The notes: generated by a model not told the origin, from the sequence alone. A DNA stretch of 64,000 nt from Bacteroidota bacterium (GCA_947475205.1 CANJNG010000001.1:679-64678); one strand, 5' to 3'; shown: positions 1 to 54,540, counted from the stretch's first letter. Numbers and translations are program-made.

Positions 1-986
1 GGAAAAGAATACCCTATTACTACTAATATATTTGTGCCTTTTGCTGCCTCTATTGCTTTTTGATAATTTTCATTTTTACTAATCTCATTTTCCTCAAATG
101 CAAATCTAATATCTGATGAATCTTTATAAACCCCTTTTTTAAAAGAAAATTTTAGAAAAGCTCTACTTGATTCTAAATATGACTCAAAGGAATCTAAACC
201 ATATATTCCCGAAATGTCAGATTTTTTTTCATTTTTATCGGGTCTATAGCGACAAAGCCCATTCAAATGAATAGGCAATAGTGAACTTAAAGAACTATTT
301 TGGGATACGGCTGAACTTTTGATTTTATTAATTGGGAATATTTTAGTGTGAGGTTCAATGTAATCCATTAATGCTAATTCCATTTGAATATCATAGTTCC
401 AGGTTAAAACATTAATATTACTTGGAAATTTATCTGAAAAATCATCATATATAGTTGTAATGAAACTCCTATAGCGTTTATCAGATTCTCTTTCTGAAGA
501 ATATTCAAATCTTTCTTCATACGTTGAATAGTCCTTGTGGCCACCGTAAGTTAATGGAAATGGATTTGCTATGCAATCTAAATTATAAACTAATTGTTTA
601 AAAACCAGGTATTGTTCGAATATAAGTTTTTTTTCATAAAACCAAAGCTTGTCTTTATAGAATAAATATTTAAAATAAGTATCAATAGTCAAGAAGGAAC
701 TTGATTCTCTGCCTAAAGCCTCAACACTGATAATAAAGTTATGTAGTTGATTGTATCTATCTTTGTTTCCATTTAGATTGGCTAATCCTGTAAAATCGGT
801 ATATGTATTTACAACAGTACTAAAATTATTTAATTCTTCAGATAGAGAGTCATAACGCTTTAAAATTTTTACAAAGTGTTTTGGATTCTCTTCTGTTGCT
901 ACCTCTTCCTCTTGAAACCTTTCTTTAACTAATGGCAACACCCCTACGCTTGCACCTGCTCCTAATAAATATGTTATTTTTGGCAT
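1..986 (-). CDS. SIR2_2-like (SIR2 superfamily) protein, C-terminally truncated by the window edge; candidate defence-type NADase
   Basis: ATG at 984-986 on the minus strand. The frame was checked codon by codon down to position 3 and has no stop, so the gene runs off the window. The translation starts MPKITYLLGAGASVGVLPLV (GAGxS NAD-binding motif) and later shows TWNYD (the TTNYD-like motif), PIHLNG and VVIGYSF (the GYS motif), in the order seen in Pfam SIR2_2-type proteins. The region is ~30% GC against ~47% for the flanks. It is missing from the ORF track because it has no in-window stop. Confidence 0.5.
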   Translation of the reverse strand, partial: MPKITYLLGAGASVGVLPLVKERFQEEEVATEENPKHFVKILKRYDSLSEELNNFSTVVNTYTDFTGLANLNGNKDRYNQLHNFIISVEALGRESSSFLTIDTYFKYLFYKDKLWFYEKKLIFEQYLVFKQLVYNLDCIANPFPLTYGGHKDYSTYEERFEYSSERESDKRYRSFITTIYDDFSDKFPSNINVLTWNYDIQMELALMDYIEPHTKIFPINKIKSSAVSQNSSLSSLLPIHLNGLCRYRPDKNEKKSDISGIYGLDSFESYLESSRAFLKFSFKKGVYKDSSDIRFAFEENEISKNENYQKAIEAAKGTNILVVIGYSF

Positions 987-1191
987 ATCGTATATATTGG
1001 GTGTAAATATATTAGAATAATAGTTCTAGTATTAGATATCAAATAGAACATTTTCTGAAATTCGAACTTACTAAATATAGGGATTCTTTGATTCTAACAT
1101 GGAAATTCAATCAATCACGGCACCTACAAGTAGTAGCGTGAAAACACTTCCAACATTTATGCTAAAGGTTGCAAATGGTCCCCCTCCACCC

Positions 1192-2202
1192 CTACATCTT
1201 CACCTTCCTCAATTTATGAAAGAAAGCACTTTCTTTATCGCCAATATCCATCAGTAGGTTCGCAATAGATTTAAAATCCTCGTTTCCGGCTTGTCGTCCT
1301 TTGCATATCCGTCCGGCCGAGAACGCAAAATCTCGCCATTGGTCGCCTATGCCGGTCATTTCTTTCGAGAGTAAAGATAGTTCCGGGTTATCCAATCGCT
1401 TGGCGGCCTGTTGCAAGAAAGCGGCATAAATAAACCGAAATCCCGCACCGCCTGTGCCTATTTCTTCCTGCATCCGCACAATGTTTCCCAAGAACAAAAT
1501 AGCTTTTCGTTCATCCATGGCCGTGGGGTATTTAGCTACTTTATTGGCCATATAGTTGATGGCCCGGCTACCAAAAAAGGGCAAAAAGGGCGGAGTCATA
1601 ATATTTTCGAAACCACTCCAGCGTATCGCCTTTTTAATGGCCGGATTAAAATCCACCTTCTCGGGAACCGACACCGGATAATACATCCTTCCGTTCGGAG
1701 CCAAAACACCTTTCGGAAAACGAGCCCGCTCTAAATCCTTCGGCGAAATGGTGGTGGTGAAATCCAATACCGGATCGCTTACCAAATACTCCCCGTTTTG
1801 CTTTCCGTAAATCAATAAATTATGAGCATTAAAATGAAACCGGAAAGCCTTAGGCAAATAGGGCAGATAGTAAACCGAGGTGAGCATCCCAACGGGAAAA
1901 CCCCGGTCTAAGACCCTATCCAGTTCATCCATTCCCTTTTGGCGGTTGTTTCCAAAGCTTTCGGCCTGAAAGTTTATGCCCAACCTATTGGTTAGTCGCT
2001 TCGAAATCAATCCCGGCATCACGCGATAGGTGGTTCCGGGTATTCCGTTAAGTTTCAAAAAAGGCATGTGGGCAAAAAATATCCCCGAGCCAATTCCAAA
2101 CGCCATTGGCTCGCTTATGTCAAGCCCGTGAAACCTTAGTAAATTGCTTATGGTGCCGCTTTCGCAATGGGCTGCCTGGCGGTGTGTGTAATTTATGCTC
2201 AA
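1192..2202 (-). CDS. BtrH_N (papain-like) / DUF4872 domain protein
   Basis: 336-aa ORF. The N-terminal HCESGTISNLLRFHGLDISEPMAFGIGSGIFF segment matches the BtrH N-terminal family signature (Cys/His papain-like), with a DUF4872-like remainder. Confidence 0.6.
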   Translation of the reverse strand: MSINYTHRQAAHCESGTISNLLRFHGLDISEPMAFGIGSGIFFAHMPFLKLNGIPGTTYRVMPGLISKRLTNRLGINFQAESFGNNRQKGMDELDRVLDRGFPVGMLTSVYYLPYLPKAFRFHFNAHNLLIYGKQNGEYLVSDPVLDFTTTISPKDLERARFPKGVLAPNGRMYYPVSVPEKVDFNPAIKKAIRWSGFENIMTPPFLPFFGSRAINYMANKVAKYPTAMDERKAILFLGNIVRMQEEIGTGGAGFRFIYAAFLQQAAKRLDNPELSLLSKEMTGIGDQWRDFAFSAGRICKGRQAGNEDFKSIANLLMDIGDKESAFFHKLRKVKM

Positions 2203-2211
2203 TGTAAAATT

Positions 2212-2640
2212 TTATTCCGCTCTCAACAGTTCGTTTAGGTCAATGTTTAACACTTCGGCATATTTTTCTTTGGTAGCAGCGGGCAAGGCAGCAAAGGCCG
2301 CCGGGTTATACAGATGTTCCTTCACCTTGGCTTTCGACATATCCATGTATTCCGAAAGCATGGCCTCGTTCATCATGCACTTAGTGCTGTGATAAGCAAG
2401 GGTGCTCCACTGTCCGGCTTTCACCTTTTCCAATGCTTCCTTTGCCTGCTCGTTCACTTCGTCCCAAGCTTGGCTCAGCACCGTTATTTCGGCATCCCAA
2501 CCTATGGATTGCACTTCCACATAATTGCCATTTTCGTCGGTTGCATATTTCAACCCGGTGAATTTTCCACCAATAACGCCACTGTCGTCCTGTGGCACTT
2601 CGTTTGCTTTCATTTGTGTTAATAGAGGCAAATTATCCAT
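2212..2640 (-). CDS. hypothetical protein (142 aa), co-operonic with the BtrH_N gene
   Basis: ORF on the same strand with normal coding composition. Its stop lies 9 nt before the downstream gene's start. No family was recognised. Confidence 0.5.
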   Translation of the reverse strand: MDNLPLLTQMKANEVPQDDSGVIGGKFTGLKYATDENGNYVEVQSIGWDAEITVLSQAWDEVNEQAKEALEKVKAGQWSTLAYHSTKCMMNEAMLSEYMDMSKAKVKEHLYNPAAFAALPAATKEKYAEVLNIDLNELLRAE

Positions 2641-2820
2641 ATCAATACGGATAGATTTTGCGATTCAAAAATAGTGGTTCTGGCTTTAGGGTGGCCTATT
2701 TAATTCTTTTCCCAATTTTTTGGTATTAACTTTAAACAGTAAACCTCAAACTTTAAACCCCTTTAGTATCCCTTTTTTTATCATTTTTGCACCCTCAATT
2801 TTATCCCCGTATTTTTTGAA

Positions 2821-3072
2821 ATGGATTCACTGCTAAGCCGCGTAAATAAAGCTTTAGAACAATTGCGGCCCTTTCTGCAAAACGATGGCGGCGATATAGA
2901 ATTGGTGGAAATTACGCCCAATAAAATAGCCCGAATCAAACTTTTGGGGGCTTGTTCTGTTTGTAGTATGAGCGAAATGACCATGAAGGCAGGCGTAGAA
3001 GAAGCCATTTTAAAGGCTGTTCCCGAAATTAAGGGAGTGGAACCTGTGGTGGACGATGTATTTTTAATTTGA
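2821..3072 (+). CDS. NifU-like Fe-S cluster assembly domain protein
   Basis: 83 aa. The GGDIELVEI...LGACSVCSMS sequence has the CxxC pattern of the NifU C-terminal domain. Confidence 0.8.
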   Translation: MDSLLSRVNKALEQLRPFLQNDGGDIELVEITPNKIARIKLLGACSVCSMSEMTMKAGVEEAILKAVPEIKGVEPVVDDVFLI

Positions 3073-3087
3073 TTTTGAAATTTAGTT

Positions 3088-4947
3088 TTGATGAACAAAA
3101 CCACTGAGATTAAGAAAGATGTTACGATTTTGTTTGCCGGCGACAGTGGCGATGGAATTCAACTCACCGGAACCCAGTTTACAAACACCAATGCCCTTTT
3201 TGGCAACGATTTAAGCACTTTCCCTAATTTCCCTGCCGAGATACGGGCCCCCCAAGGCACTTTGGCCGGAGTGTCGGGCTTTCAATTGCATTTTGGAAGC
3301 GAACAAATTTATACTCCCGGCGATGAATGCGATGTGTTGGTGGTAATGAATGCGGCTGCCCTAAAAGCGAATCTTAAAAACCTAAAAGCCGGAGGAAGCA
3401 TTATTGCAAACACGGACGGTTTCGACCCCAAGAATTTGAAATTGGCTAAATATCCCGATGGAGTTCAGCCACTCGAAGATCATTCGCTCGATAAATTCAA
3501 ACTCTATACCATCGATGTTACCAAAATGACCAAAACGGCTTTGGCCGATAGTGGTTTGGGTACAAAAGAGATTGACCGCACAAAGAATATGTTTGTGCTT
3601 GGTTTCATTTGTTGGATGTATAACCGTTCGCTCGAAACCAGCGTCAATTATGTAAAAGAACAGTTTCGCAAAAAGCCCGAAATTGTTGAAGCCAACACCA
3701 AGGTTTTGAAAGCCGGTTACCATTTTGGCGAAACCAGCGAAACCTTCACCACCCGCTATCAGGTGGAGAAGGCTGCGATGCCTCCCGGAGTGTATCGCAA
3801 TATAATGGGCAACCAGGCAACAGCTTTGGGTTTATTGGCTGCTTCAAAACTATCGGGCTTGGAAATGTTCTTTGGAACCTATCCCATTACGCCCGCGTCC
3901 GACATATTGCACGAGCTATCGAAATACAAGAATTTTGGGGTGAAAACCTTTCAGGCCGAAGACGAAATAGCAGCCATTACTTCAGCTATTGGAGCAAGTT
4001 TTGGCGGAGCATTGGGTGTTACATCATCATCCGGCCCCGGCATTGCCTTAAAAGGCGAAGCTATTGGTTTGGCTTTGATGCTCGAATTGCCTTTGCTCAT
4101 CGTAAACGTTCAGCGGGGCGGCCCTTCCACCGGATTGCCCACCAAAACCGAACAAGCCGATTTGATGCAAGCAATTTATGGCCGAAATGGTGAAAGTCCG
4201 GTTCCCGTGATAGCAGCTTATTCGCCTTCCAACTGTTTCGATACGGTGATAGAAGCGGCCCGTTTAGCTGTTGAATTTATGACTCCCGTTTTCTTCCTTT
4301 CCGATGGATATATTGCCAATGGTGCCGAACCATGGCGTTTCCCTAAGGAAGCCGATTTGCCTAAGATTACCCCGGTGTTCGCCACCATTAATTCTAAAAC
4401 CGAAGATGGCAAGTTTCTTCCCTACAAACGTAACGAAAAGCTAAGTCGCGAATGGGCAATTCCGGGCACAAAAGGATTGGAACATCGCATCGGAGGCTTA
4501 GAAAAAGAACACGAAACCGGAAACATTAGCTACGACCCCGCCAACCATGAGTTTATGGTGAAAATGCGTCAGGCCAAAGTGGATAAAATTGCCGACTATA
4601 TCCCCTTGCAGAAATTGGAATCAGGCCCTGAAAAAGGAAAACTCTTGATTGTGGGCTGGGGGAGCACTTACGGTTCTATCACCGCAGCCGCAAAGCAGGC
4701 CGTTGCCGAAGGGATTGAAGTATCGCATGTTCATTTACGTTATCTGAATCCTTTACCTAAAAACTTAGGTGAAATCCTTTCCAACTTCGAACGGATTATT
4801 GTTCCTGAAATGAATAATGGCCAGTTGGTGCGTATTCTGCGTGACAAATACTTAGTGCCTGCTGAAGGATTTAATAAAATTAAAGGAGAACCATTTTCAA
4901 CGAAAGAAATTTTAGGGAAGATTAGAGAAGCTGTTTTAGTTAGTTAA
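3088..4947 (+). CDS. korA: 2-oxoglutarate/2-oxoacid:ferredoxin oxidoreductase subunit alpha
   Basis: 619 aa with a KorA-like domain order (gamma/alpha region). It sits 16 nt after the NifU gene and directly before the TPP-binding beta subunit. Confidence 0.85.
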   Translation: MMNKTTEIKKDVTILFAGDSGDGIQLTGTQFTNTNALFGNDLSTFPNFPAEIRAPQGTLAGVSGFQLHFGSEQIYTPGDECDVLVVMNAAALKANLKNLKAGGSIIANTDGFDPKNLKLAKYPDGVQPLEDHSLDKFKLYTIDVTKMTKTALADSGLGTKEIDRTKNMFVLGFICWMYNRSLETSVNYVKEQFRKKPEIVEANTKVLKAGYHFGETSETFTTRYQVEKAAMPPGVYRNIMGNQATALGLLAASKLSGLEMFFGTYPITPASDILHELSKYKNFGVKTFQAEDEIAAITSAIGASFGGALGVTSSSGPGIALKGEAIGLALMLELPLLIVNVQRGGPSTGLPTKTEQADLMQAIYGRNGESPVPVIAAYSPSNCFDTVIEAARLAVEFMTPVFFLSDGYIANGAEPWRFPKEADLPKITPVFATINSKTEDGKFLPYKRNEKLSREWAIPGTKGLEHRIGGLEKEHETGNISYDPANHEFMVKMRQAKVDKIADYIPLQKLESGPEKGKLLIVGWGSTYGSITAAAKQAVAEGIEVSHVHLRYLNPLPKNLGEILSNFERIIVPEMNNGQLVRILRDKYLVPAEGFNKIKGEPFSTKEILGKIREAVLVS

Positions 4948-5009
4948 TAGATTAACATTAATCTCCCATCTCAAGTCTGATATCTAAAATCTAATGTCTA
5001 AAATCTAAA

Positions 5010-6020
5010 ATGACCACTACATATACAGCCAAAGACCTCGTTACCGACCAAGATGTGCGTTGGTGTCCGGGTTGCGGCGACTATTCTATCTTAAAACAGG
5101 TTCAAACCGTTATTCCTGAATTGGGAATTGAAAAAGAAAAGCTTGTTTTTATCTCCGGCATCGGCTGTTCAAGCAGATTCCCTTATTACATGGATACTTT
5201 CGGCATGCATAGCATCCACGGAAGAGCAACAGCTATTGCCAGTGGCTTGAAAGCTACCCGACCCGATTTAAGCGTTTGGATTGTTACCGGCGATGGCGAC
5301 TCTATGTCGATTGGCGGCAATCATCTCATTCACCTGCTTCGCCGCAATTTTGATGTGAATATTTTATTATTCAACAATGAAATCTATGGCTTAACCAAAG
5401 GACAATATTCTCCTACATCGGAACGAGGCAAAATAACCAAATCCACGCCTATGGGTTCGGTAGACCATCCATTTAATCCTTTGGCCTTATGCTTGGGTGC
5501 CGATTCTACTTTTATTGCCCGCACAATGGACAGAGACCCGGTTCATTTACGCACAACCTTAAAGCGGGCTCACCAACATAAAGGAACTTCTTTGTTGGAA
5601 ATATACCAAAACTGCAATGTGTTTAATGATGGTGCTTTTGAATTATTCACCGAAAAATCATCGAAACCCGAAGAGGCTTTGTTTTTGGAACACGGCCAAC
5701 CTTTAGTTTTTGGTATCAATAAAAATAAAGGCATCAAATTAGATGGCTTCAAACCCGTGGTGGTTGAATTGGAAGGCAATTCATTGAACGACCTTTGGAT
5801 TCACGATGAATCTGACCGCATGAAGGCATCATTGCTTACCCGTTTCTTTGGCGAAATGGGTGCAGAAAACCATTTACCACGGCCCTTTGGTGTGTTTTAT
5901 CAGGAAAATCGCTACACCTACGAAGATGCTATGCTGGAACAACTTGAAGAGGCTACCTCAAAAGGTATTGGCAATTTAGATGCAATGATTCAGGGAAAGA
6001 ATACCTGGGTGGTGGAATAA
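5010..6020 (+). CDS. korB: 2-oxoacid:ferredoxin oxidoreductase subunit beta (TPP-binding)
   Basis: 336 aa with the GDGD TPP motif (VTGDGDSMSIGGNH). Confidence 0.85.
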   Translation: MTTTYTAKDLVTDQDVRWCPGCGDYSILKQVQTVIPELGIEKEKLVFISGIGCSSRFPYYMDTFGMHSIHGRATAIASGLKATRPDLSVWIVTGDGDSMSIGGNHLIHLLRRNFDVNILLFNNEIYGLTKGQYSPTSERGKITKSTPMGSVDHPFNPLALCLGADSTFIARTMDRDPVHLRTTLKRAHQHKGTSLLEIYQNCNVFNDGAFELFTEKSSKPEEALFLEHGQPLVFGINKNKGIKLDGFKPVVVELEGNSLNDLWIHDESDRMKASLLTRFFGEMGAENHLPRPFGVFYQENRYTYEDAMLEQLEEATSKGIGNLDAMIQGKNTWVVE

Positions 6021-6153
6021 TTAATTATTCCTATAAAGTTATAAAGGGTAACATCTGCGTTCCTTTCTGTAGATAAGGCTTTACGAATATTGATGGATTA
6101 GAGACCATAAACTGTTTGTTTCATACAAACGATTTTATCCTGAAATTCGCTCC

Positions 6154-7023
6154 GTGCCTAAATTCTCATTTCGCAGTCTGTTTTCTTCCTCCGAAAAGGA
6201 ATCAACTTCAGCCAAGCCCGTAGATGTTGGTGAATTTTACAATCAAACCACCGATAAGTTCTTAGCCGTTTATGGTGAGATAATTCAGGCATTTCGCACC
6301 AATGATGTAACGAAGTATTTAGATTACACAGCTCAAAGTGCAAGGCTTGCCGATGGAATGACGGTAATAGATGCCGGATGCGGTGTGTGCGGTCCGGCTT
6401 TACATTTTGCCGATAAGTATCCTACTATAAAAATTGAAGCCTGCACGGTTTCTTCCGTTCAGGTGGAAAAGGCTAATGAGAGAATAGCGGCCGCCGGCAA
6501 ACAAAATCAAATAGCAGTTACCGAAGGGGATTATCATAAGCTCAATAAAACATACCCCAACAGCCATTTCGACAGGGTGTATTTTTTGGAGTCCTTTGGT
6601 CATTCAAACGATAAACGAACATTGCTTAATGGGGTTTGGGATGTGCTGAAACCCGGCGGAATGGTTTACATTAAAGATTTGTTTCGCCGCATATCGTCTG
6701 ATGAGTGGGAACAACTGCACATCGACCACATTTGCGGTCAGATAAATAAGGCATACTGTTATCATATTGCCGACCTCAACGCCATTTTAGATATTCTACG
6801 GAGCAAGGGTTATATACTTCATTTCGTGAAAATTCCCGAGGTAGAAGTTTCGGAGTTTGAGCATTTGAGTATCTCCAACGACTTTCAGAATTTATTTGAT
6901 ATTGGCAAAATAGAATCGTGGAATGACTATGTTTTTCCAATAGATTTTTTTGAGATACTGGCCGAGAAGCCTCGCTTTAATACTGAGGCCGAGAAACATT
7001 TATACTTTATGAATCGGAAGTAG
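6154..7023 (+). CDS. class I SAM-dependent methyltransferase
   Basis: VIDAGCGVCGP SAM-binding motif I. The true start may lie downstream of the listed Met. Confidence 0.7.
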   Translation: MPKFSFRSLFSSSEKESTSAKPVDVGEFYNQTTDKFLAVYGEIIQAFRTNDVTKYLDYTAQSARLADGMTVIDAGCGVCGPALHFADKYPTIKIEACTVSSVQVEKANERIAAAGKQNQIAVTEGDYHKLNKTYPNSHFDRVYFLESFGHSNDKRTLLNGVWDVLKPGGMVYIKDLFRRISSDEWEQLHIDHICGQINKAYCYHIADLNAILDILRSKGYILHFVKIPEVEVSEFEHLSISNDFQNLFDIGKIESWNDYVFPIDFFEILAEKPRFNTEAEKHLYFMNRK

Positions 7024-7030
7024 TTGGAGG

Positions 7031-9370
7031 TTACACCCGCACTCCCATCACCAAAATATCGTCTACTTGCACTTTATTGCCTTTAAACTCTTCGAGGTAG
7101 TTGCGAAGGAAGTTTCCCTGTTCAAACATGGGTGTATCTTGCATAGATAAAACAAGTTCTTTAAACCGCCGTTTGGTGAGTTTACGTTCGGGTTCGCCAC
7201 CAAACTGGTCGGCATAACCATCGCTGAACACATAAATGCTATCACCTTTTTCCAATTGAATGGTATGGTTTGTAAAAGGTAGCGAAGCATCATCGTATTT
7301 TCCAACCCCTTGATTATTCCCTTTTACTTCAATAAGCTCTCCTTTTCTTACAATCCAAAGTGGGTTGTTTGCTCCTGCCCATTGCAGCATATTGGTTTCT
7401 GGGTTAAACAGGCATAGCGAAGCATCCATCCCGTCGGAGATTTCATTTTCGCTTTTCGAGAAATTCTCTACCACTATCTCTGACACTTTATCTAATATTT
7501 TAGCTGGTTCGGTAATGCCAAATTCGCGTACCGCTCTGTTCAATGCATTATTGCACACCACCGAAACCATAGCCCCCGATACTCCGTGGCCTGTGCAGTC
7601 GCAGGCAGCGAACAATACAGATCCTTCCCAGCCACCAAGCCCCTCTCCATCTCTCCCCAAAGGGGAGAGGGCAAATGCCGTATCCTCGTTATGCGTTAGC
7701 CGCATTAACTCCTCCCCCTTTGGGGGAGGCTGGGAGGGGGCCTCCATCCAATAAAAATCCCCGGCAATAATATCTTTAGGCATATAAAGAACAAAGGAGT
7801 TTTGCAGATATTGCTTCACAATTTTGGTGGGTGGCAGTATGGCATTTTGTACCCGCAATGCACAGTTGATGGATTCGAGAATCTGAACGTTTTTGAATTC
7901 TACAATCTCTTTTTGGGTGATTACTTCTAAGCGTTGTTGTTCGATGGTATCGCGTTGCCGCAGGGTGATTTTGTATCGATTATAAACAAAAGCTATAAAA
8001 AGTGCGAGCACAATAAGCCCCACAATCAAGCCAATTCGGACGTTCTTTTGGTTTTTGATAACCAATTCCTGATTCTCTTTTTCTGTATTTAGTAGTTTTA
8101 TTTGTGCTTCCTTTTTTTCAGATTGATACTTCCCATCAAGTTCCTGAATTAGCTGAGCGTTGTTTTGCTGAGCTAGGCTATCGGTATAGTACACACAATC
8201 TTCATAATATTCATATGCCGCTTTGTAATCTCCGGCTTTATATTTTAAGGATGCTAAAGAACGCAGTGCATCGCACATCTTCACTAACCGCTTTTCCTCG
8301 TGGGTTTCGGCTATTTTAAGGGCAGTTTCGAGATATTCTCCCGCTTTGTCATATTGCTTCAATCGTCCATATATTTTGCCATAATATCGGTTAATGTTGA
8401 AATCAAATTGATTGATGTTATGCTCTTTCCCAATGGCTACCGCTTTATCTAAAAAGGATAAAGCCTTGGGAGAGTTATCGTCATAAATATAGAAATGGCT
8501 AAGGTTTACGATATACATAATCTGGCTAGCATAATCGTTTTGCTGTTCGGCAATTTGCACGGCTTTGGACAAATACTCTACTTCTTGGGCGTAGTTTTCC
8601 ATTTGCGAATACATATCTGCGGCCAGGGATAAGCCCTCGGCTTCGAGGCTCAAATCCTTAATTTCCTTAGCCAATCGTATCATTCTTTCATAGTATTCTA
8701 ACGATTGCTCATAGTTTTTTATGCGTTTGAACACCGAACCAACAAAATGCAGCAACTGCCCATAATCGGCTGTCATTATGTGATGCTTTTCATAAATATC
8801 TTGCGACTGCTGCATAAAATGCAAGGCAGTTGTATAGTCTTCCTTGTCGTAATAGTTTCGGCCTTTATCGCGAAGCAGCTTAGCTTCAAAGGCTATGTTT
8901 CCGGCCGGGAGATAGTCAAAAGCACTATCGTTATACATTAGGGCTTTTGAAGGCGAAAACTGAATTGCCCAACAGTGCGACATCAGGTAATAAAGCTCTG
9001 AAAGATATTTGGTGCTCTTAGTCTTTCGGGCTTCATCAATGCCGATTTGTATTGTAGGAAGAGCTTCTTCGGCCTGGTCAGCATCTAACCAGCCACGGCC
9101 AATTTTGAGGCAGCTGCGTTGTTTGTGATCTGAGTTCGTTTCTTTGGCAATATCGGCAAGCAGTTCCTGGGTTAAATGCTTTGCGGCCACCCTATCGGTA
9201 ATTACAAAATGGCGGAATATTCTGATTTTGGTGTTAATCCGTTCGGTATCGGATTTGGCTGCTGCAAGGGCTTTTTGAAGCGAATCGAGATTTGCTTTTT
9301 GGGAATAGGTTTTGGAATATCCCAAACAAAAGATGAGCAGGAAGCTCAAAACCCGAAATAAGTTTTTCAA
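7031..9370 (-). CDS. TPR-repeat sensor with a SpoIIE/PP2C-type serine phosphatase domain
   Basis: 779 aa. It has a signal peptide, multiple TPR-like repeats, one TM helix, and a C-terminal PP2C signature (GDFYW..., CDCTGHGVSGAMVS, FSDGYADQFGG). Confidence 0.8.
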   Translation of the reverse strand: MKNLFRVLSFLLIFCLGYSKTYSQKANLDSLQKALAAAKSDTERINTKIRIFRHFVITDRVAAKHLTQELLADIAKETNSDHKQRSCLKIGRGWLDADQAEEALPTIQIGIDEARKTKSTKYLSELYYLMSHCWAIQFSPSKALMYNDSAFDYLPAGNIAFEAKLLRDKGRNYYDKEDYTTALHFMQQSQDIYEKHHIMTADYGQLLHFVGSVFKRIKNYEQSLEYYERMIRLAKEIKDLSLEAEGLSLAADMYSQMENYAQEVEYLSKAVQIAEQQNDYASQIMYIVNLSHFYIYDDNSPKALSFLDKAVAIGKEHNINQFDFNINRYYGKIYGRLKQYDKAGEYLETALKIAETHEEKRLVKMCDALRSLASLKYKAGDYKAAYEYYEDCVYYTDSLAQQNNAQLIQELDGKYQSEKKEAQIKLLNTEKENQELVIKNQKNVRIGLIVGLIVLALFIAFVYNRYKITLRQRDTIEQQRLEVITQKEIVEFKNVQILESINCALRVQNAILPPTKIVKQYLQNSFVLYMPKDIIAGDFYWMEAPSQPPPKGEELMRLTHNEDTAFALSPLGRDGEGLGGWEGSVLFAACDCTGHGVSGAMVSVVCNNALNRAVREFGITEPAKILDKVSEIVVENFSKSENEISDGMDASLCLFNPETNMLQWAGANNPLWIVRKGELIEVKGNNQGVGKYDDASLPFTNHTIQLEKGDSIYVFSDGYADQFGGEPERKLTKRRFKELVLSMQDTPMFEQGNFLRNYLEEFKGNKVQVDDILVMGVRV

Positions 9371-9470
9371 AGCGTATATTTTGATGGCCGAAATTAATGC
9401 AATTTAAGAGCGAATGTTAAAATTCAGATGGAGGTAATTGTTCAATAAATTTCATTAGAAAGGAAAGCTA

Positions 9471-9511
9471 TACACAATATATTTATTGATAATCAATAAA
9501 TATATTGTGTA
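9471..9511. promoter_or_regulatory. perfect 41-bp palindrome (20-bp arms), candidate operator for the downstream XRE regulator
   Basis: TACACAATATATTTATTGAT-A-ATCAATAAATATATTGTGTA, with arms that are exact reverse complements. It lies in the divergent intergenic region, 39 bp upstream of the DUF2975 start. Confidence 0.5.
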
Positions 9512-9549
9512 ATTCAATGAATTCGATTTACATTTGCCGCCAATACTAA

Positions 9550-10338
9550 TTGTCATTTATGAAAAACTCATCACCCCTAAGCTTTATAAAAGGAATGTTT
9601 TGGTTCTTTCGGATTGGATTTTGGCTTCAATTGGTAATAATCTTTATTCAACTCTTTTTTAATTATGTAATGTATGACAGCGAGCAGGGTTTATACTTTA
9701 CAGTGCGGGGGAATATTTACGCCCATACTACACAGCCGCATCTTCCCAATTTACACCCTTTAGATTCAGTTATTCATAAAACACCCGCAACCTCCGTAAG
9801 TCGCAGCAAATATGGCGTAACAACATTGGATACAATTGGGAGCAAAACTATTTATATGTTCAACGGCCAGCAGTTTGGATTTTTGCGGGTTGATTACACT
9901 GAATTCACCAAGGCATTTACGGTTACAAATATGCTTTGGTTCTTGGCCGATATTTCATTTTTTCTGCTTTGGCTTATCATTACTTATCAGATTATGAAGA
10001 TACTTCAATCCATTAAGGATGAGGCTGTTTTTATTCAGCAGAATATAAAACGAATTACCTTCATCGGTTGGGCTTTTATTCTTATGACTTTTGTTGAAAT
10101 TGTAAAAGATCAGGTTTTTTTCTTAGTTGCAAAGCAGCACTTGCAGGATACAGGTCTTACCCTAATTTCAAATGTAAATTGGTATGATTTGGTTCCAATT
10201 TCATTGTATTCTGTTTCTTACGACACCATGAATCATTCCCGATTTCAAGGCATAGCTTTGGGCTTGATAATCCTGGTAATTGCTCAGATATTTAAAAACG
10301 GGTTTGAATTACAAAAAGAAAAGGACTTAACCATTTAA
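9550..10338 (+). CDS. DUF2975-like multi-pass membrane protein
   Basis: Hydrophobic protein with 4-5 TM helices. It sits 4 nt upstream of a short XRE HTH gene, which is the classic DUF2975/XRE pairing. The listed start may be too far upstream. Confidence 0.5.
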   Translation: MSFMKNSSPLSFIKGMFWFFRIGFWLQLVIIFIQLFFNYVMYDSEQGLYFTVRGNIYAHTTQPHLPNLHPLDSVIHKTPATSVSRSKYGVTTLDTIGSKTIYMFNGQQFGFLRVDYTEFTKAFTVTNMLWFLADISFFLLWLIITYQIMKILQSIKDEAVFIQQNIKRITFIGWAFILMTFVEIVKDQVFFLVAKQHLQDTGLTLISNVNWYDLVPISLYSVSYDTMNHSRFQGIALGLIILVIAQIFKNGFELQKEKDLTI

Positions 10339-25130: not shown

Positions 25131-25385
25131 ATTCTTTTTTGGAGCAGAACCTTTGGCATTTCAAGCCAACGTTTGGGTCCCGCTATCCGTTCCAAGTCCG
25201 CCAGCCCCACAAGCCAAACCCACTTCGGGCTTTCCACTCCTATCGGGGCTAAACCGAAAGGACCGTATTTCAAACTAACGGTTGCTAAAATACCCTTCGG
25301 CGGCTTTAATTACCCTTACCCTTCTACTCACCCCCTTCAATACACTTCACAAGCTTATCGTCACTATACTCACGTCAATAACTAC

Positions 25386-25595
25386 GTTTCGCATGCCCAC
25401 CTCTACCGTACTCGCGTCCATCACGATGCTTCGCACATCTAACACTACGGTACTCACGACTATCACGATGCTTCGCACGTCTATCACTACTGTACTCGCG
25501 ACTATCACGATGCTTCGCACGTCTATCACTACTGTACTCGCGTCCATAACGATGCTTCGCACATCTATCACTACTGTACTCGAGTTCAACACTAC
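25386..25595. repeat. 42-bp tandem repeat, about 5 copies (consensus CTATCACGATGCTTCGCACGTCTATCACTACTGTACTCGCGA)
   Basis: Units at 25386, 25428, 25470, 25512 and 25554 with >90% identity between the middle copies. The array sits in a 660-bp non-coding, strand-asymmetric region that is C-rich on the top strand. Confidence 0.85.
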
Positions 25596-29501: not shown

Positions 29502-30524
29502 TTATTTCATCAGGAATGGGAATTTCCCAACATTTTTCAAGGCAATACCGGTTCCGCGAGCCACTGCACGAAGTGGATCTTCGGCTATGTGAACAGGCAG
29601 TTTTGTTTTTTGTGAAATACGTTTATCTAAACCTCGCAACATAGAACCTCCACCGGCTAAATATATTCCGGTGCGAAATATGTCAGCAGAAAGTTCCGGC
29701 GGAGTCATTTCTAAAGCGTTCAAGATAGCTGCTTCAATTTTTGAAATAGATTTATCAAGGGCATGAGCAATCTCAATATAGGAAACCGTGATTTCTTTCG
29801 GAATCCCGGTCATTAAGTCGCGGCCTTGTACGGCGTAGTCTGGTGGGGGATTGTCGAGTTCTGTAGTGGCCGCACCTACTTCTATTTTGATTCGTTCGGC
29901 GGTGCGTTCCCCCACCAAAATATTGTGCTGTCTTCGCATATAATCTTCAATATCGGAAGTGAAATCATCACCCGCCACACGAATACTTTTATCGCAGACA
30001 ATACCGCCTAAGGCTATAACCGCAATTTCGGAGGTTCCGCCCCCAATGTCGATAATCATATTCCCCATCGGCTCTTCCACATCGATACCAATCCCGATTG
30101 CCGCCGCCATCGGCTCCTGAATCAAATATACTTCCTTTGCTCCAGCATGTTCGGCACTGTCTTTAACGGCTCGTTTTTCCACCTCGGTGATACCACTTGG
30201 AATACAGATTACCATTTTAAGTGAAGGTTGAAAGAAGTGCTTCCCGGGATTAATCATCTTTATCATTTCCCGAATCATCTGTTCTGCAGCATGAAAATCG
30301 GCAATAACTCCATCCCGTAAAGGTCGAATAGTCTTAATGTCTTCGTGGGTTTTTCCGTGCATTTGCATTGCCCGTTTACCCACTGCCATTACCCGCCCAT
30401 CGCGACGATTGATGGCTACAATCGAAGGCTCATCCACTACCACCTTGTCGTTGTGAATGATAAGTGTATTTGCTGTGCCAAGGTCAATCGCTATTTCTTG
30501 GGTAAAAAAGTTGAATAATCCCAT
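29502..30524 (-). CDS. mreB: rod shape-determining protein MreB
   Basis: 340-aa actin-like ATPase (IDLGTANTLI, DIGGGTSEIAV). Confidence 0.9.
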   Translation of the reverse strand: MGLFNFFTQEIAIDLGTANTLIIHNDKVVVDEPSIVAINRRDGRVMAVGKRAMQMHGKTHEDIKTIRPLRDGVIADFHAAEQMIREMIKMINPGKHFFQPSLKMVICIPSGITEVEKRAVKDSAEHAGAKEVYLIQEPMAAAIGIGIDVEEPMGNMIIDIGGGTSEIAVIALGGIVCDKSIRVAGDDFTSDIEDYMRRQHNILVGERTAERIKIEVGAATTELDNPPPDYAVQGRDLMTGIPKEITVSYIEIAHALDKSISKIEAAILNALEMTPPELSADIFRTGIYLAGGGSMLRGLDKRISQKTKLPVHIAEDPLRAVARGTGIALKNVGKFPFLMK

Positions 30525-30710
30525 ATTTTTCGAAGTATTTCGGTAAAACGCTATTTGTTAAATCTCTCTATTTGAATATGCAAAAGTGCGTATTTCTATC
30601 GATAGAAATTTGCCAAAGATTGCAAGTTTTCAGATACTTGATTTCACTGTAATAAAATATTCTAAACCGTTAATTGTTGAATACCTAAGCAGGGAATTTA
30701 GGGACAGACT

Positions 30711-54051: not shown

Positions 54052-54540
54052 TCCCTAAGCCCGGAACCCTCTACGGTAAATGCTTGAGAGCATTCCCTGA
54101 TCCCCGAACCCCTTCAAGCAATTGCTTGAGAGCATTCCCTAATCCCTTAATCAGTTCAAGCAATTGCTTGAGAGCAATCCCTAAGCCCGGAACCCTCTCC
54201 GGCAAATGCTTGAGAGCAATCCCTAAGCCCGGAACCCTCTCCGGTAAATGCCTGAGAGCAATCCCTAAGCCCGGAACCCTCTCCGGCAAATGCCTGAGAG
54301 CATTCCCTAAGCCCGGAACCCTTTCCGACAAATGCCTGAGAGCATTCCCTAGGCCCGGAACCCTCTCCAGCAAATGCCTGAGAGCATTCCCTAATCCCGA
54401 AACCCTCTCCGGTAAATGCTTGAGAGCAATCCCTAAGTCCCGAACCCGTTCAAGTAAATGCTTGGAAGCATTCCCTAAGCCCCTAATCCGTTCACGCAAT
54501 TGCTTGAGAGCATTCCCTAGGTCCCGAACCCGTTCTAGCT
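54052..54540. repeat. 42-bp tandem repeat array, about 12 copies (consensus TCCCTAAGCCCGGAACCCTCTCCGGCAAATGCTTGAGAGCAA)
   Basis: Units lie head-to-tail every 42 bp from 54052, with point variants only and no intervening spacers. The last unit is degenerate. Both strands keep long open frames (152 and 164 aa) only because of the periodicity. Confidence 0.9.

What the first reader, a model, noticed from the sequence alone, without database searches (positions are those of the whole stretch)
1..1190. AT-rich island at the window edge carrying a truncated SIR2_2-like gene
The first ~1.1 kb is ~30% GC, while the rest of the window is ~45-50%. This stretch encodes the N-terminal ~328 aa of a protein with GAGAS, TWNYD and IGYS motifs in SIR2_2 order. 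That family supplies NAD-depleting effectors of Thoeris, DSR and other anti-phage systems. The compositional break just before the BtrH_N gene suggests a horizontally acquired defence cargo. The C-terminal effector or sensor domain and any partner genes lie off-window.
Basis: partly seen in the sequence, partly recalled or inferred. Interest (0 to 1): 0.6.

Follow-up and report, generated by a model that had tools for sequence, protein, structure and literature searches.

The report
Lone SIR2-like gene lacking catalytic histidine
The AT-rich window edge is a single acquired gene for a small stand-alone sirtuin-like protein from a large unannotated family carried by phages and mobile elements.

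Summary
Window 1-986 has 29.4% GC against 41.7 +/- 2.8% elsewhere (z = -4.4), with GC3 of 20%. It carries an open 328-codon minus-strand reading frame with GAGAS, WNYD and IGYS motifs. An identical 114-kb contig shows that only 86 codons are off-window. The protein is 414 aa with one domain, and the low-GC island is this one gene. It sits between darH and a normal-GC orphan gene, with no partner.

It belongs to about 2,000 clusters of unannotated 320-420 aa stand-alone proteins. These sit beside integrases, restriction-modification and toxin-antitoxin genes and inside phage genomes. They share no recurrent neighbour and are always AT-richer than their flanks.

In 199 of 199 members the catalytic His of sirtuins and ThsA ("KLHG") is an Asn ("KLNG"), and no other His is conserved.

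The SIR2 fold and horizontal acquisition are supported, and a defence role is likely. The Thoeris/DSR-like multi-domain reading is wrong, and NAD depletion is unproven. I rate this a new variant of a known kind, of moderate interest.

The parts
1..986 (-). Codons 1-328 of a 414-codon gene for a stand-alone SIR2-like (sirim-like) protein. The ATG is at 984-986. Codons 329-414 and the stop lie off-window, at L089 10641-10899.
948..962 (-). GAGAS loop (residues 9-13), the NAD pyrophosphate-binding signature that follows strand beta-1.
   Evidence: Read from the sequence. At least 99% conserved in 199 family members. HMMER aligns it with GAGVS of KomC.
390..401 (-). WNYD (residues 196-199). N197 corresponds to the catalytic Asn of ThsA (N112).
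   Evidence: 100% invariant in 199 sequences. Aligned NYD-to-NYD with BcThsA, EcThsA, SeThsA and KomC.
258..266 (-). LNG (residues 241-243). N242 occupies the position of the catalytic His of sirtuins and sirims (K-h-H-G).
   Evidence: N242 is 100% and G243 is 99% conserved in 199 sequences, and there is no other conserved His. The greedy hhalign path pairs KLNG with KMHG of ThsA, i.e. H152. That alignment is not statistically significant on its own. The equivalence is inferred from motif order, spacing and secondary structure.
6..17 (-). IGYS (residues 324-327), the start of the GYSFPxFNxxID motif. The rest of the motif is off-window.
   Evidence: G325, Y326, N332 and D336 are invariant. Aligned with GFSF.DPN of ThsA.
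987..1191 (.). AT-rich (33% GC) spacer between the darH stop and the gene's start. It is the presumed promoter region and the left edge of the low-GC island.
   Evidence: The sigma-70-type scan was not above shuffles. Bacteroidota-type promoters are not covered by the tool.
1033..1066 (.). Tentative: a 14-nt direct repeat (1033-1046) and a 14-nt inverted-repeat arm (1053-1066). Their partners lie just past the stop codon, off-window (L089 10900-10913 and 10917-10930).
   Evidence: Individually p is about 0.07-0.09. Jointly 13 of 2000 shuffles reach the observed values. This is a post hoc observation.
1192..2202 (-). darH (BtrH-like acyltransferase). This is the native-composition flank and is not part of the island.
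   Evidence: NCBIfam DarH_acyl 3.5e-133; Pfam BtrH_N + DUF4872.

Best explanation
The island is a single, self-contained, horizontally acquired gene. Its 414-aa product is one SIR2-type Rossmann domain with a helical insert and no zinc module. It belongs to a large unannotated family of stand-alone 320-420 aa proteins that travel on phages, integrase cassettes and defence/TA islands.

I think it most likely acts in phage-host or mobile-element conflict as a one-gene effector. It would bind NAD+ through the GAGAS loop, N197/D199 and the GYS motif, and cleave the nicotinamide-ribose bond.

The catalytic His is an invariant Asn. The only described precedent for an amide side chain at this position is the Gln of SirTM ADP-ribosyltransferases. 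I therefore lean towards ADP-ribosyl transfer to a target rather than bulk NAD+ hydrolysis.

**Shown:** the composition break, gene completeness, SIR2 fold, family size, absence of a partner, mobile contexts and the absence of a conserved His.

**Inferred:** NAD+ binding, the N242 = His-position equivalence, the chemistry and the defence role.
For: **Fold and homology**
- The Foldseek top hits are E. coli SIR2-HerA, E = 3e-5.
- PADLOC SIR2 models hit 34 of 60 relatives.
- The family HMM scores sirims at per-sequence P of 7e-5 to 9e-3, with NYD and GYSF motifs in register. Canonical sirtuins are not significant.

**Single domain, no partner**
-.

**Family**
- 1,990 representatives (50%-identity clusters) at E<1e-30, all 320-424 aa.
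- No Pfam, NCBIfam or PHROG assignment, and all source names are 'hypothetical protein'.

**Mobility and conflict context**
- Integrase immediately upstream in L002, L007 and L103.
- R-M genes adjacent in L006, L100, L110 and L197. In L197 the gene sits between the mod and res genes.
- Xre-RES adjacent in L008; IS and SocA adjacent in L195.
- In phage genomes L096, L101/L111 and L114, and in 14 IMG/VR contigs.
- The gene is AT-richer than its flanks in 21 of 21 loci.
- It is absent from 160 darH loci of other species.

**Active site**
- N242 is invariant and there is no conserved His.
- In SirTM, Gln137 replaces the catalytic His, contacts the ribose 3'-OH, and the enzyme is an ADP-ribosyltransferase (PMC4518038).
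Against: - There is no experiment of any kind on this family.
- The window protein is a divergent member, about 30% identical to the rest. It deviates at several near-invariant positions: A105F, W297F, R333N.
- In this genome no integrase, R-M or other defence gene is visible next to it. It lies on the same strand 205 bp downstream of darH, and it is present in every conspecific contig seen.
- His-to-Ala mutations abolish activity in ThsA, KomC and FAM118B, and a KomC(H146N) variant was deposited in the PDB. An Asn here could therefore mean loss of catalysis.
- The residue-level N242/His equivalence rests on a non-significant profile alignment plus motif logic, not on a superposition.
- The context sample is about 22 loci, not a statistical enrichment test.
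Confidence: 0.45

Rival explanations
1. Same biological role (one-gene abortive-infection or exclusion effector), but the chemistry is plain NAD+ hydrolysis as in ThsA, DSR2 and KomC. The Asn would functionally substitute for the His.
For: All characterised defence sirims are NADases (papers). The closest sequence and HMM matches are ThsA, KomC and PADLOC SIR2 models. The NAD-binding motifs and the catalytic Asn are intact.
Against: The His is required for NADase activity wherever it has been tested: ThsA H152A, FAM118B H206A, KomC H146A. 199 of 199 family members carry Asn instead.
Confidence: 0.25
2. A catalytically dead SIR2-like NAD/ADPR/nucleotide-binding protein. It could be a sensor, or in phages a sponge or decoy that counters NAD-based or nucleotide-signalling defences.
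For: The catalytic His is lost. Several members lie in phage genomes, for example between RusA and terminase in L101/L111 and in Leptospira LE1-like phages.
Against: There is invariant conservation of N197, D199, R171, D102, N332 and D336 and many other polar residues. That is more than a binding protein usually needs. Many members sit in chromosomal integrase, R-M and TA contexts typical of defence cargo.
Confidence: 0.12
3. A lineage-specific accessory or housekeeping gene of the dar (flexirubin/dialkylresorcinol) region. On this reading its low GC reflects the gene family rather than recent transfer.
For: It lies on the same strand 205 bp downstream of darG-darH, with no predicted terminator between them. 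It is present and at least 99.7% identical in all conspecific contigs. Family genes are AT-rich everywhere.
Against: 0 of 160 darG-darH loci in other species have it. Its GC3 is 4 sd below the genome's genes. Relatives are in phages and mobile elements with no dar genes nearby.
Confidence: 0.05
4. One reading: the N-terminal part of a larger SIR2_2 effector of a Thoeris-, DSR- or SIR2-HerA-type system, with its sensor domain and partner genes just off-window.
For: Motif order GAGAS / NYD / GYS. Weak PADLOC SIR2 hit.
Against: The identical contig L089 shows a 414-aa single-domain product. It is followed by a normal-GC orphan and cytochrome c genes. The locus holds no TIR, SLOG, Macro, HerA or long C-terminal domain. 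All about 2,000 relatives are 320-424 aa.
Confidence: 0.02

Closest known systems
ThsA / KomC-type defence sirtuins ('sirims', Pfam SIR2_2)
   Same: SIR2 Rossmann fold without a zinc module. The GAGxS loop, the xxNYDxxxE strand-helix and the G[YF]S[FL]..N motif occur in the same order and with similar spacing. These are the best HMMER per-sequence scores among the reference proteins.
   Different: There is no SLOG or Macro domain and no ThsB, KomA or KomB partner. The Pfam SIR2_2 HMM does not detect the protein. The catalytic His (ThsA H152, KomC H146) is an invariant Asn.
SIR2 subunit of SIR2-HerA (Nezha)
   Different: No HerA gene is present in this locus or in any of 21 family loci. Identity is 13-18%. 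TM-score is only 0.38. The His is absent.
SirTM (class M ADP-ribosylating sirtuins)
   Different: SirTM has a zinc module and is encoded in an operon with a macrodomain and GcvH-L. The replacement there is Gln, not Asn. No detectable sequence relationship was tested here beyond the fold.
DSR1 / DSR2
   Same: SIR2 domain at the N-terminus, acting as a single-gene defence.
   Different: DSR proteins are about 1,000 aa with a large sensor region and keep the catalytic His (DSR2 H171A entries). This protein is 414 aa with one domain.
AbiH (Pfam PF14253)
   Same: A single-gene abortive-infection protein of about 350 aa.
   Different: Only 1 of 60 relatives gives a marginal AbiH hit (E = 0.0012). 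The window protein gives none, and no PADLOC AbiH hit was obtained.

Membership tests
SIR2 superfamily (fold level) | Rossmann-type SIR2 fold, recognised by structure comparison | tested here: met
Pfam SIR2_2 (PF13289) / sirims | Match to the SIR2_2 HMM at the gathering threshold | tested here: not met
   No Pfam hit at E<=1 for the 328-aa fragment or the full 414 aa. Only 11 of 60 relatives give weak hits, best 4.3e-4.
Pfam SIR2_2 (PF13289) / sirims | GAGxS NAD-binding loop and catalytic Asn (ThsA N112) | tested here: met
   GAGAS and N197 are 99-100% conserved. NYD is aligned to NYD of four sirims.
Pfam SIR2_2 (PF13289) / sirims | Catalytic His (ThsA H152, KomC H146, FAM118B H206) | tested here: not met
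   The position is Asn in 199 of 199 members. The only His-rich column (position 98, 82% His) is Phe in this protein. The pairing KLNG/KMHG comes from hhalign (low probability) together with motif order.
Pfam SIR2_2 (PF13289) / sirims | No zinc-binding module | tested here: met
   The 414-aa sequence has only two Cys (C138, C245) and no CxxC pairs.
Pfam SIR2_2 (PF13289) / sirims | NADase activity | not testable with these tools
   Needs biochemistry.
Thoeris (ThsA + ThsB) | C-terminal SLOG or Macro domain on the SIR2 protein, and an adjacent TIR-domain ThsB | tested here: not met
   The protein ends after the SIR2 domain. The neighbours are darH and an orphan ORF with no Pfam hit.
SIR2-HerA (Nezha) | Adjacent HerA ATPase gene | tested here: not met
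   No HerA in L089 or within 3 kb in 21 family loci.
DSR1 / DSR2 | A protein of about 1,000 aa with a large C-terminal sensor region | tested here: not met
   414 aa; the family range is 256-424 aa.
SirTM | Gln at the His position, a zinc module, and an operon with a macrodomain and GcvH-L | tested here: not met
   Asn rather than Gln. No Cys4 motif. No macrodomain neighbour. The resemblance is mechanistic only.
AbiH | Match to the AbiH HMM | tested here: not met
   No hit for this protein. 1 of 60 relatives hits at E = 0.0012.
Genomic island (horizontally acquired) | Compositional deviation plus absence from the syntenic site in related genomes | tested here: inconclusive
   Deviation is met: z = -4.35 and GC3 = 0.20. 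The gene is absent from 160 darH loci of other species. However, the nearest of those share only 75-79% DarH identity and have different synteny. No true empty site was found, and all conspecific contigs carry the gene.

The most novel reading that the evidence does not exclude
These stand-alone 'Asn-sirims' may be a distinct, undescribed sirtuin class of about 2,000 sequence clusters, borne on phages and mobile elements. In this class an invariant Asn replaces the catalytic His. The enzyme would then do something other than NAD+ hydrolysis, most plausibly ADP-ribosylation of a phage or host target as in SirTM. It would confer immunity or exclusion as a single gene, sometimes wired into type III restriction-modification operons.
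Probability: 0.25. Interest if true: 0.75.

Novelty: new variant of a known kind. Interest (0 to 1): 0.5.

Why it matters
SIR2 domains are among the commonest effectors of bacterial immunity, and every characterised defence sirtuin is a His-dependent NADase. This large family is invisible to annotation, is carried by mobile elements, keeps the NAD-binding signature and has fixed an Asn at the His position.

That points to one of two things. It could be a second chemistry for defence sirtuins, namely ADP-ribosyl transfer. Or it could be a widespread non-catalytic derivative. Either outcome would change how 'SIR2-like' hits in defence-island screens are interpreted.

The family is also missed by Pfam, NCBIfam and PADLOC thresholds, so current defence censuses do not count it.

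For this window specifically, the result corrects the idea that a larger system lies off the edge. The element is one gene.

Tried and rejected
**Searches that did not reach SIR2 relatives**
- PDB sequence searches with the protein, the 60-sequence family profile and a 4-sequence subfamily profile found no SIR2 chain.
- hhalign of the family against E. coli CobB alone, and against small canonical-sirtuin alignments (CobB, Af1, Sir2Tm), aligned only the GAGxS loop or gave unreliable paths.
- A big-database search with CobB returned only relatives at least 83% identical, which was useless for building a profile.
- hhalign against ThsA/KomC gave a collinear four-motif path but Prob < 1%. I therefore use it only as supporting evidence.

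**Libraries and collections**
- The afdb50 fold library was unavailable.
- BFVD gave only a marginal Marseillevirus Sir2 hit, E = 0.32.
- The plasmid collection gave no match with P0010.
- PHROGs gave 1 of 60 weak hits.

**Looking for an empty site**
- The downstream orphan gene has no relatives in JGI metagenomes.
- The closest darH loci (75-79% identity) are not syntenic.

**Island boundaries and signals**
- G-rich and C-rich tracts at the two island edges are not a significant inverted repeat.
- There are no tRNA genes in the window.
- Sigma-70-type promoter matches are not above shuffles.

**Partner hypothesis**
- All-against-all BLASTP of neighbours within 3 kb in 21 loci found only integrases and one duplicated phage.

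Full report
**1.

The first ~1.05 kb of the window is 27.7-30.0% GC in 300-nt windows, climbing to 41-46% by 1051-1500. Positions 1-986 are 29.4% GC. Every other 986-nt window averages 41.7% (sd 2.8, minimum 33.8), so z = -4.35. Third-codon-position GC of the gene is 0.20, against 0.42 +/- 0.05 for 41 long ORFs of the window.

On the minus strand an ATG at 984-986 opens 328 codons that run off the left edge without a stop. In DNA this AT-rich that cannot be chance. The three motifs are present and I located them in the DNA: GAGAS at 948-962, WNYD at 390-401 and IGYS at 6-17.

**2. What lies off-window**

A database search found a 414-aa full-length version, P0001, with one substitution, R173M. 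Looking up the neighbouring DarG protein led to a 114-kb metagenome contig, L089. It is 100% identical to window 1-8000 and encodes exactly the window's protein.

Only 86 codons are missing, and they finish the same domain (strands at 320-324, 349-353 and 380-383 of the model). The low-GC stretch in L089 runs from about 9350 to about 11000. That covers the 205-bp upstream spacer, the 1,245-bp gene and a few dozen bases beyond it.

Next come a C-rich tract and one 42-bp repeat unit. After those is a 318-codon ORF of normal GC (44-50%) with no Pfam match, and then cytochrome c and Fe-S genes. The island is therefore one gene with no partner.

**3. What the protein is**

Sequence libraries barely see it.
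- Pfam gives no hit at E<=1 for either the fragment or the full protein. Only 11 of 60 relatives give weak SIR2_2 hits, best 4.3e-4.
- NCBIfam gives nothing for 60 of 60.
- PHROGs gives one weak hit.
- Every source name is 'hypothetical protein'.
- PADLOC's SIR2 models do respond: 3e-6 for this protein, and 34 of 60 relatives hit one model at down to 1.7e-11.

The same search returned EcThsA, SeThsA and KomC sequences. A family HMM scores these four at per-sequence P of 7e-5 to 9e-3, with GAGAS/GAGVS, NYD/NYD and GYSF..FN/GFSF.PN in register. CobB, Af1 and Sir2Tm are not significant.

So the protein is a divergent relative of the defence-type ('sirim', SIR2_2) branch. It is not a canonical sirtuin, and it is below the threshold of the curated SIR2_2 model.

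**4. The family**

An exhaustive profile search of 1.84 billion cluster representatives found 1,990 at E<1e-30 and 3,345 at E<=1e-3. All 150 listed cover the whole profile and are 320-411 aa. In my 199-sequence set the median length is 341 aa.

The window protein is an outlier, about 30% identical to the others. It has extra insertions and a longer tail, but it keeps every 100%-invariant residue: G9, A10, G11, S13, D102, R171, W196, N197, Y198, D199, N242, G325, Y326, N332 and D336.

**5. The missing histidine**

Sirtuins and sirims share four motifs in fixed order: GAGxS, xxNxD, x-H-G and G-[TYF]-S. The Asn and His are the catalytic pair, for example ThsA N112/H152, FAM118B N163/H206 and KomC H146. 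Mutating the His abolishes activity (bioRxiv 10.1101/2024.09.18.613514; PMC12700824; PMC13454610). The PDB even holds a 'KomC(H146N)' variant.

In this family the third motif is K-L-N-G. N242 is Asn in 199 of 199 sequences and G243 is Gly in 99%. The only column with appreciable His (position 98, in the helical insert, 82%) is Phe in the window protein. Whatever the exact alignment, no conserved His exists.

Several lines of evidence place N242 at the His position.
- It sits at the end of the short strand between the NYD strand and the FAWE strand.
- Its spacing from the catalytic Asn is 45 residues, against 38-43 in ThsA, DSR2 and FAM118.
- The K-h-[H/N]-G context is identical.
- A collinear hhalign path pairs KLNG with KMHG of ThsA.

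That alignment has a low probability score, and I could not superpose coordinates. I therefore mark the equivalence as inferred.

The one described precedent for an amide at this position is SirTM. There an absolutely conserved Gln137 replaces the His and contacts the ribose 3'-OH together with a conserved Arg. SirTM is a protein ADP-ribosyltransferase with no deacylase activity (PMC4518038).

**6. Where family members live**

I examined about 22 independent loci.
- An integrase lies immediately upstream in L002/L003, L007 and L103. L007 looks like a minimal integrase-plus-cargo cassette.
- Restriction-modification genes are adjacent in four loci. L006 has a type ISP enzyme plus Rep_1 and an excisionase-like HTH. 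L100 has type III mod and res. L110 has an Eco57I-type methylase and T5orf172-ResIII. In L197 the gene sits between mod and res with 4- and 35-nt gaps.
- L008 has Xre-RES and a nucleotidyltransferase gene next door. L195 has an IS1595 transposase and SocA.
- Some members are in phage genomes. These include Leptospira LE1-like phages, a marine phage where the gene lies between RusA and the terminase genes (L101/L111, seen in 75 sample blocks) and L114. Fourteen IMG/VR contigs carry relatives.
- L196, like the window, is a single-gene insertion between housekeeping genes.

All-against-all comparison of every ORF within 3 kb found no recurrent neighbour other than integrases. In 21 of 21 loci the gene is AT-richer than its flanks, by 2-15 points. 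Low GC is therefore a trait of the family, not only of this copy.

**7. Is this copy acquired?**

The darG-darH pair is conserved in 160 loci from other species. These comprise 80 from GTDB representative genomes and 80 from JGI metagenomes, at up to 79% DarH identity. None has a family member nearby.

All conspecific contigs (identical DarG) do carry the gene, at 99.7% identity or more. No empty site was found, because the nearest relatives have different synteny. The evidence favours acquisition in the lineage followed by fixation, but it stops short of proof.

A 14-nt direct repeat and a 14-nt inverted repeat bracket the ORF. G/C tracts at the edges are not a significant inverted repeat.

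**8. Mechanism and rivals**

Best reading (0.45): a one-gene, mobile, NAD+-using SIR2-like effector of phage-host conflict. Given the amide-for-His swap, I lean towards ADP-ribosyl transfer over bulk hydrolysis.

Rivals:
- Same role, but a plain NADase (0.25).
- A non-catalytic binder or phage decoy (0.12).
- A lineage-specific accessory of the dar region (0.05).

**9. Verdict**

It is wrong on three points. There is no hidden domain or partner. NAD depletion should not be assumed.

Novelty is a new variant of a known kind. I set interest at 0.5. The family-level feature (large, unannotated, without the catalytic histidine, mobile) would interest specialists, but nothing functional is shown here.

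Noticed in passing
window 25403-25582 and 54052-54531; L001 11439-11555 (off-window, downstream of the gene): There are three unrelated intergenic tandem arrays, all with a 42-bp period (4.3, 11.4 and at least 3 copies). The array downstream of the SIR2-like gene has only one unit in L089 but at least three in the MAG contig L001, where the contig ends inside it. Copy number therefore varies between assemblies.
   Followed up: partly
window 25172-25254 (-): A Flavo-1 sRNA (Rfam RF01705, 46.3 bits, above gathering) lies in an ORF-poor stretch with strong negative GC skew at 24-26 kb.
   Followed up: no
window 1192-2640 (-): The darH (NCBIfam DarH_acyl, 3.5e-133) and darG (DarG_fam, 2.8e-35) dialkylresorcinol/flexirubin genes sit beside NifU and a 2-oxoacid:ferredoxin oxidoreductase pair. 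The darG-darH pair recurs in 150+ loci from Bacteroidota to Campylobacterota and Desulfobacterota.
   Followed up: partly
L197 4248-9805; L100 1557-7107: In L197 a family member is inserted between the methylase and the ResIII/SWI2_SNF2 subunit of a type III-like R-M, with gaps of 4 and 35 nt. In L100 it directly follows mod+res. This may be a functional coupling of the gene to R-M in a subset of loci.
   Followed up: partly
21 family loci (L002-L114): The family gene is AT-richer than its 4-kb flanks in every locus examined (-0.02 to -0.15 GC), whatever the host GC.
   Followed up: yes
window 1033-1046 and 1053-1066; partners at L089 10900-10913 and 10917-10930: A 14-nt direct repeat (CTAnnTGATATCTA) and a 14-nt inverted repeat bracket the ORF within 70 nt of its start and stop.
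   Followed up: partly
L089 11309-12265 (off-window): A 318-aa ORF of normal GC lies next to the island. It has no Pfam match, no relatives in JGI metagenomes and none in 174 fetched loci, so it appears to be an orphan.
   Followed up: partly
window 9100-9700 and about 30400-30600: These are the next-lowest GC stretches of the window (33.8-36%). I did not examine them.
   Followed up: no
PDB entry 9xvc: A deposited structure is named 'KomC(H146N), a SIR2-domain NADase'. It is a laboratory mutant with the same His-to-Asn change that this family carries naturally.
   Followed up: partly
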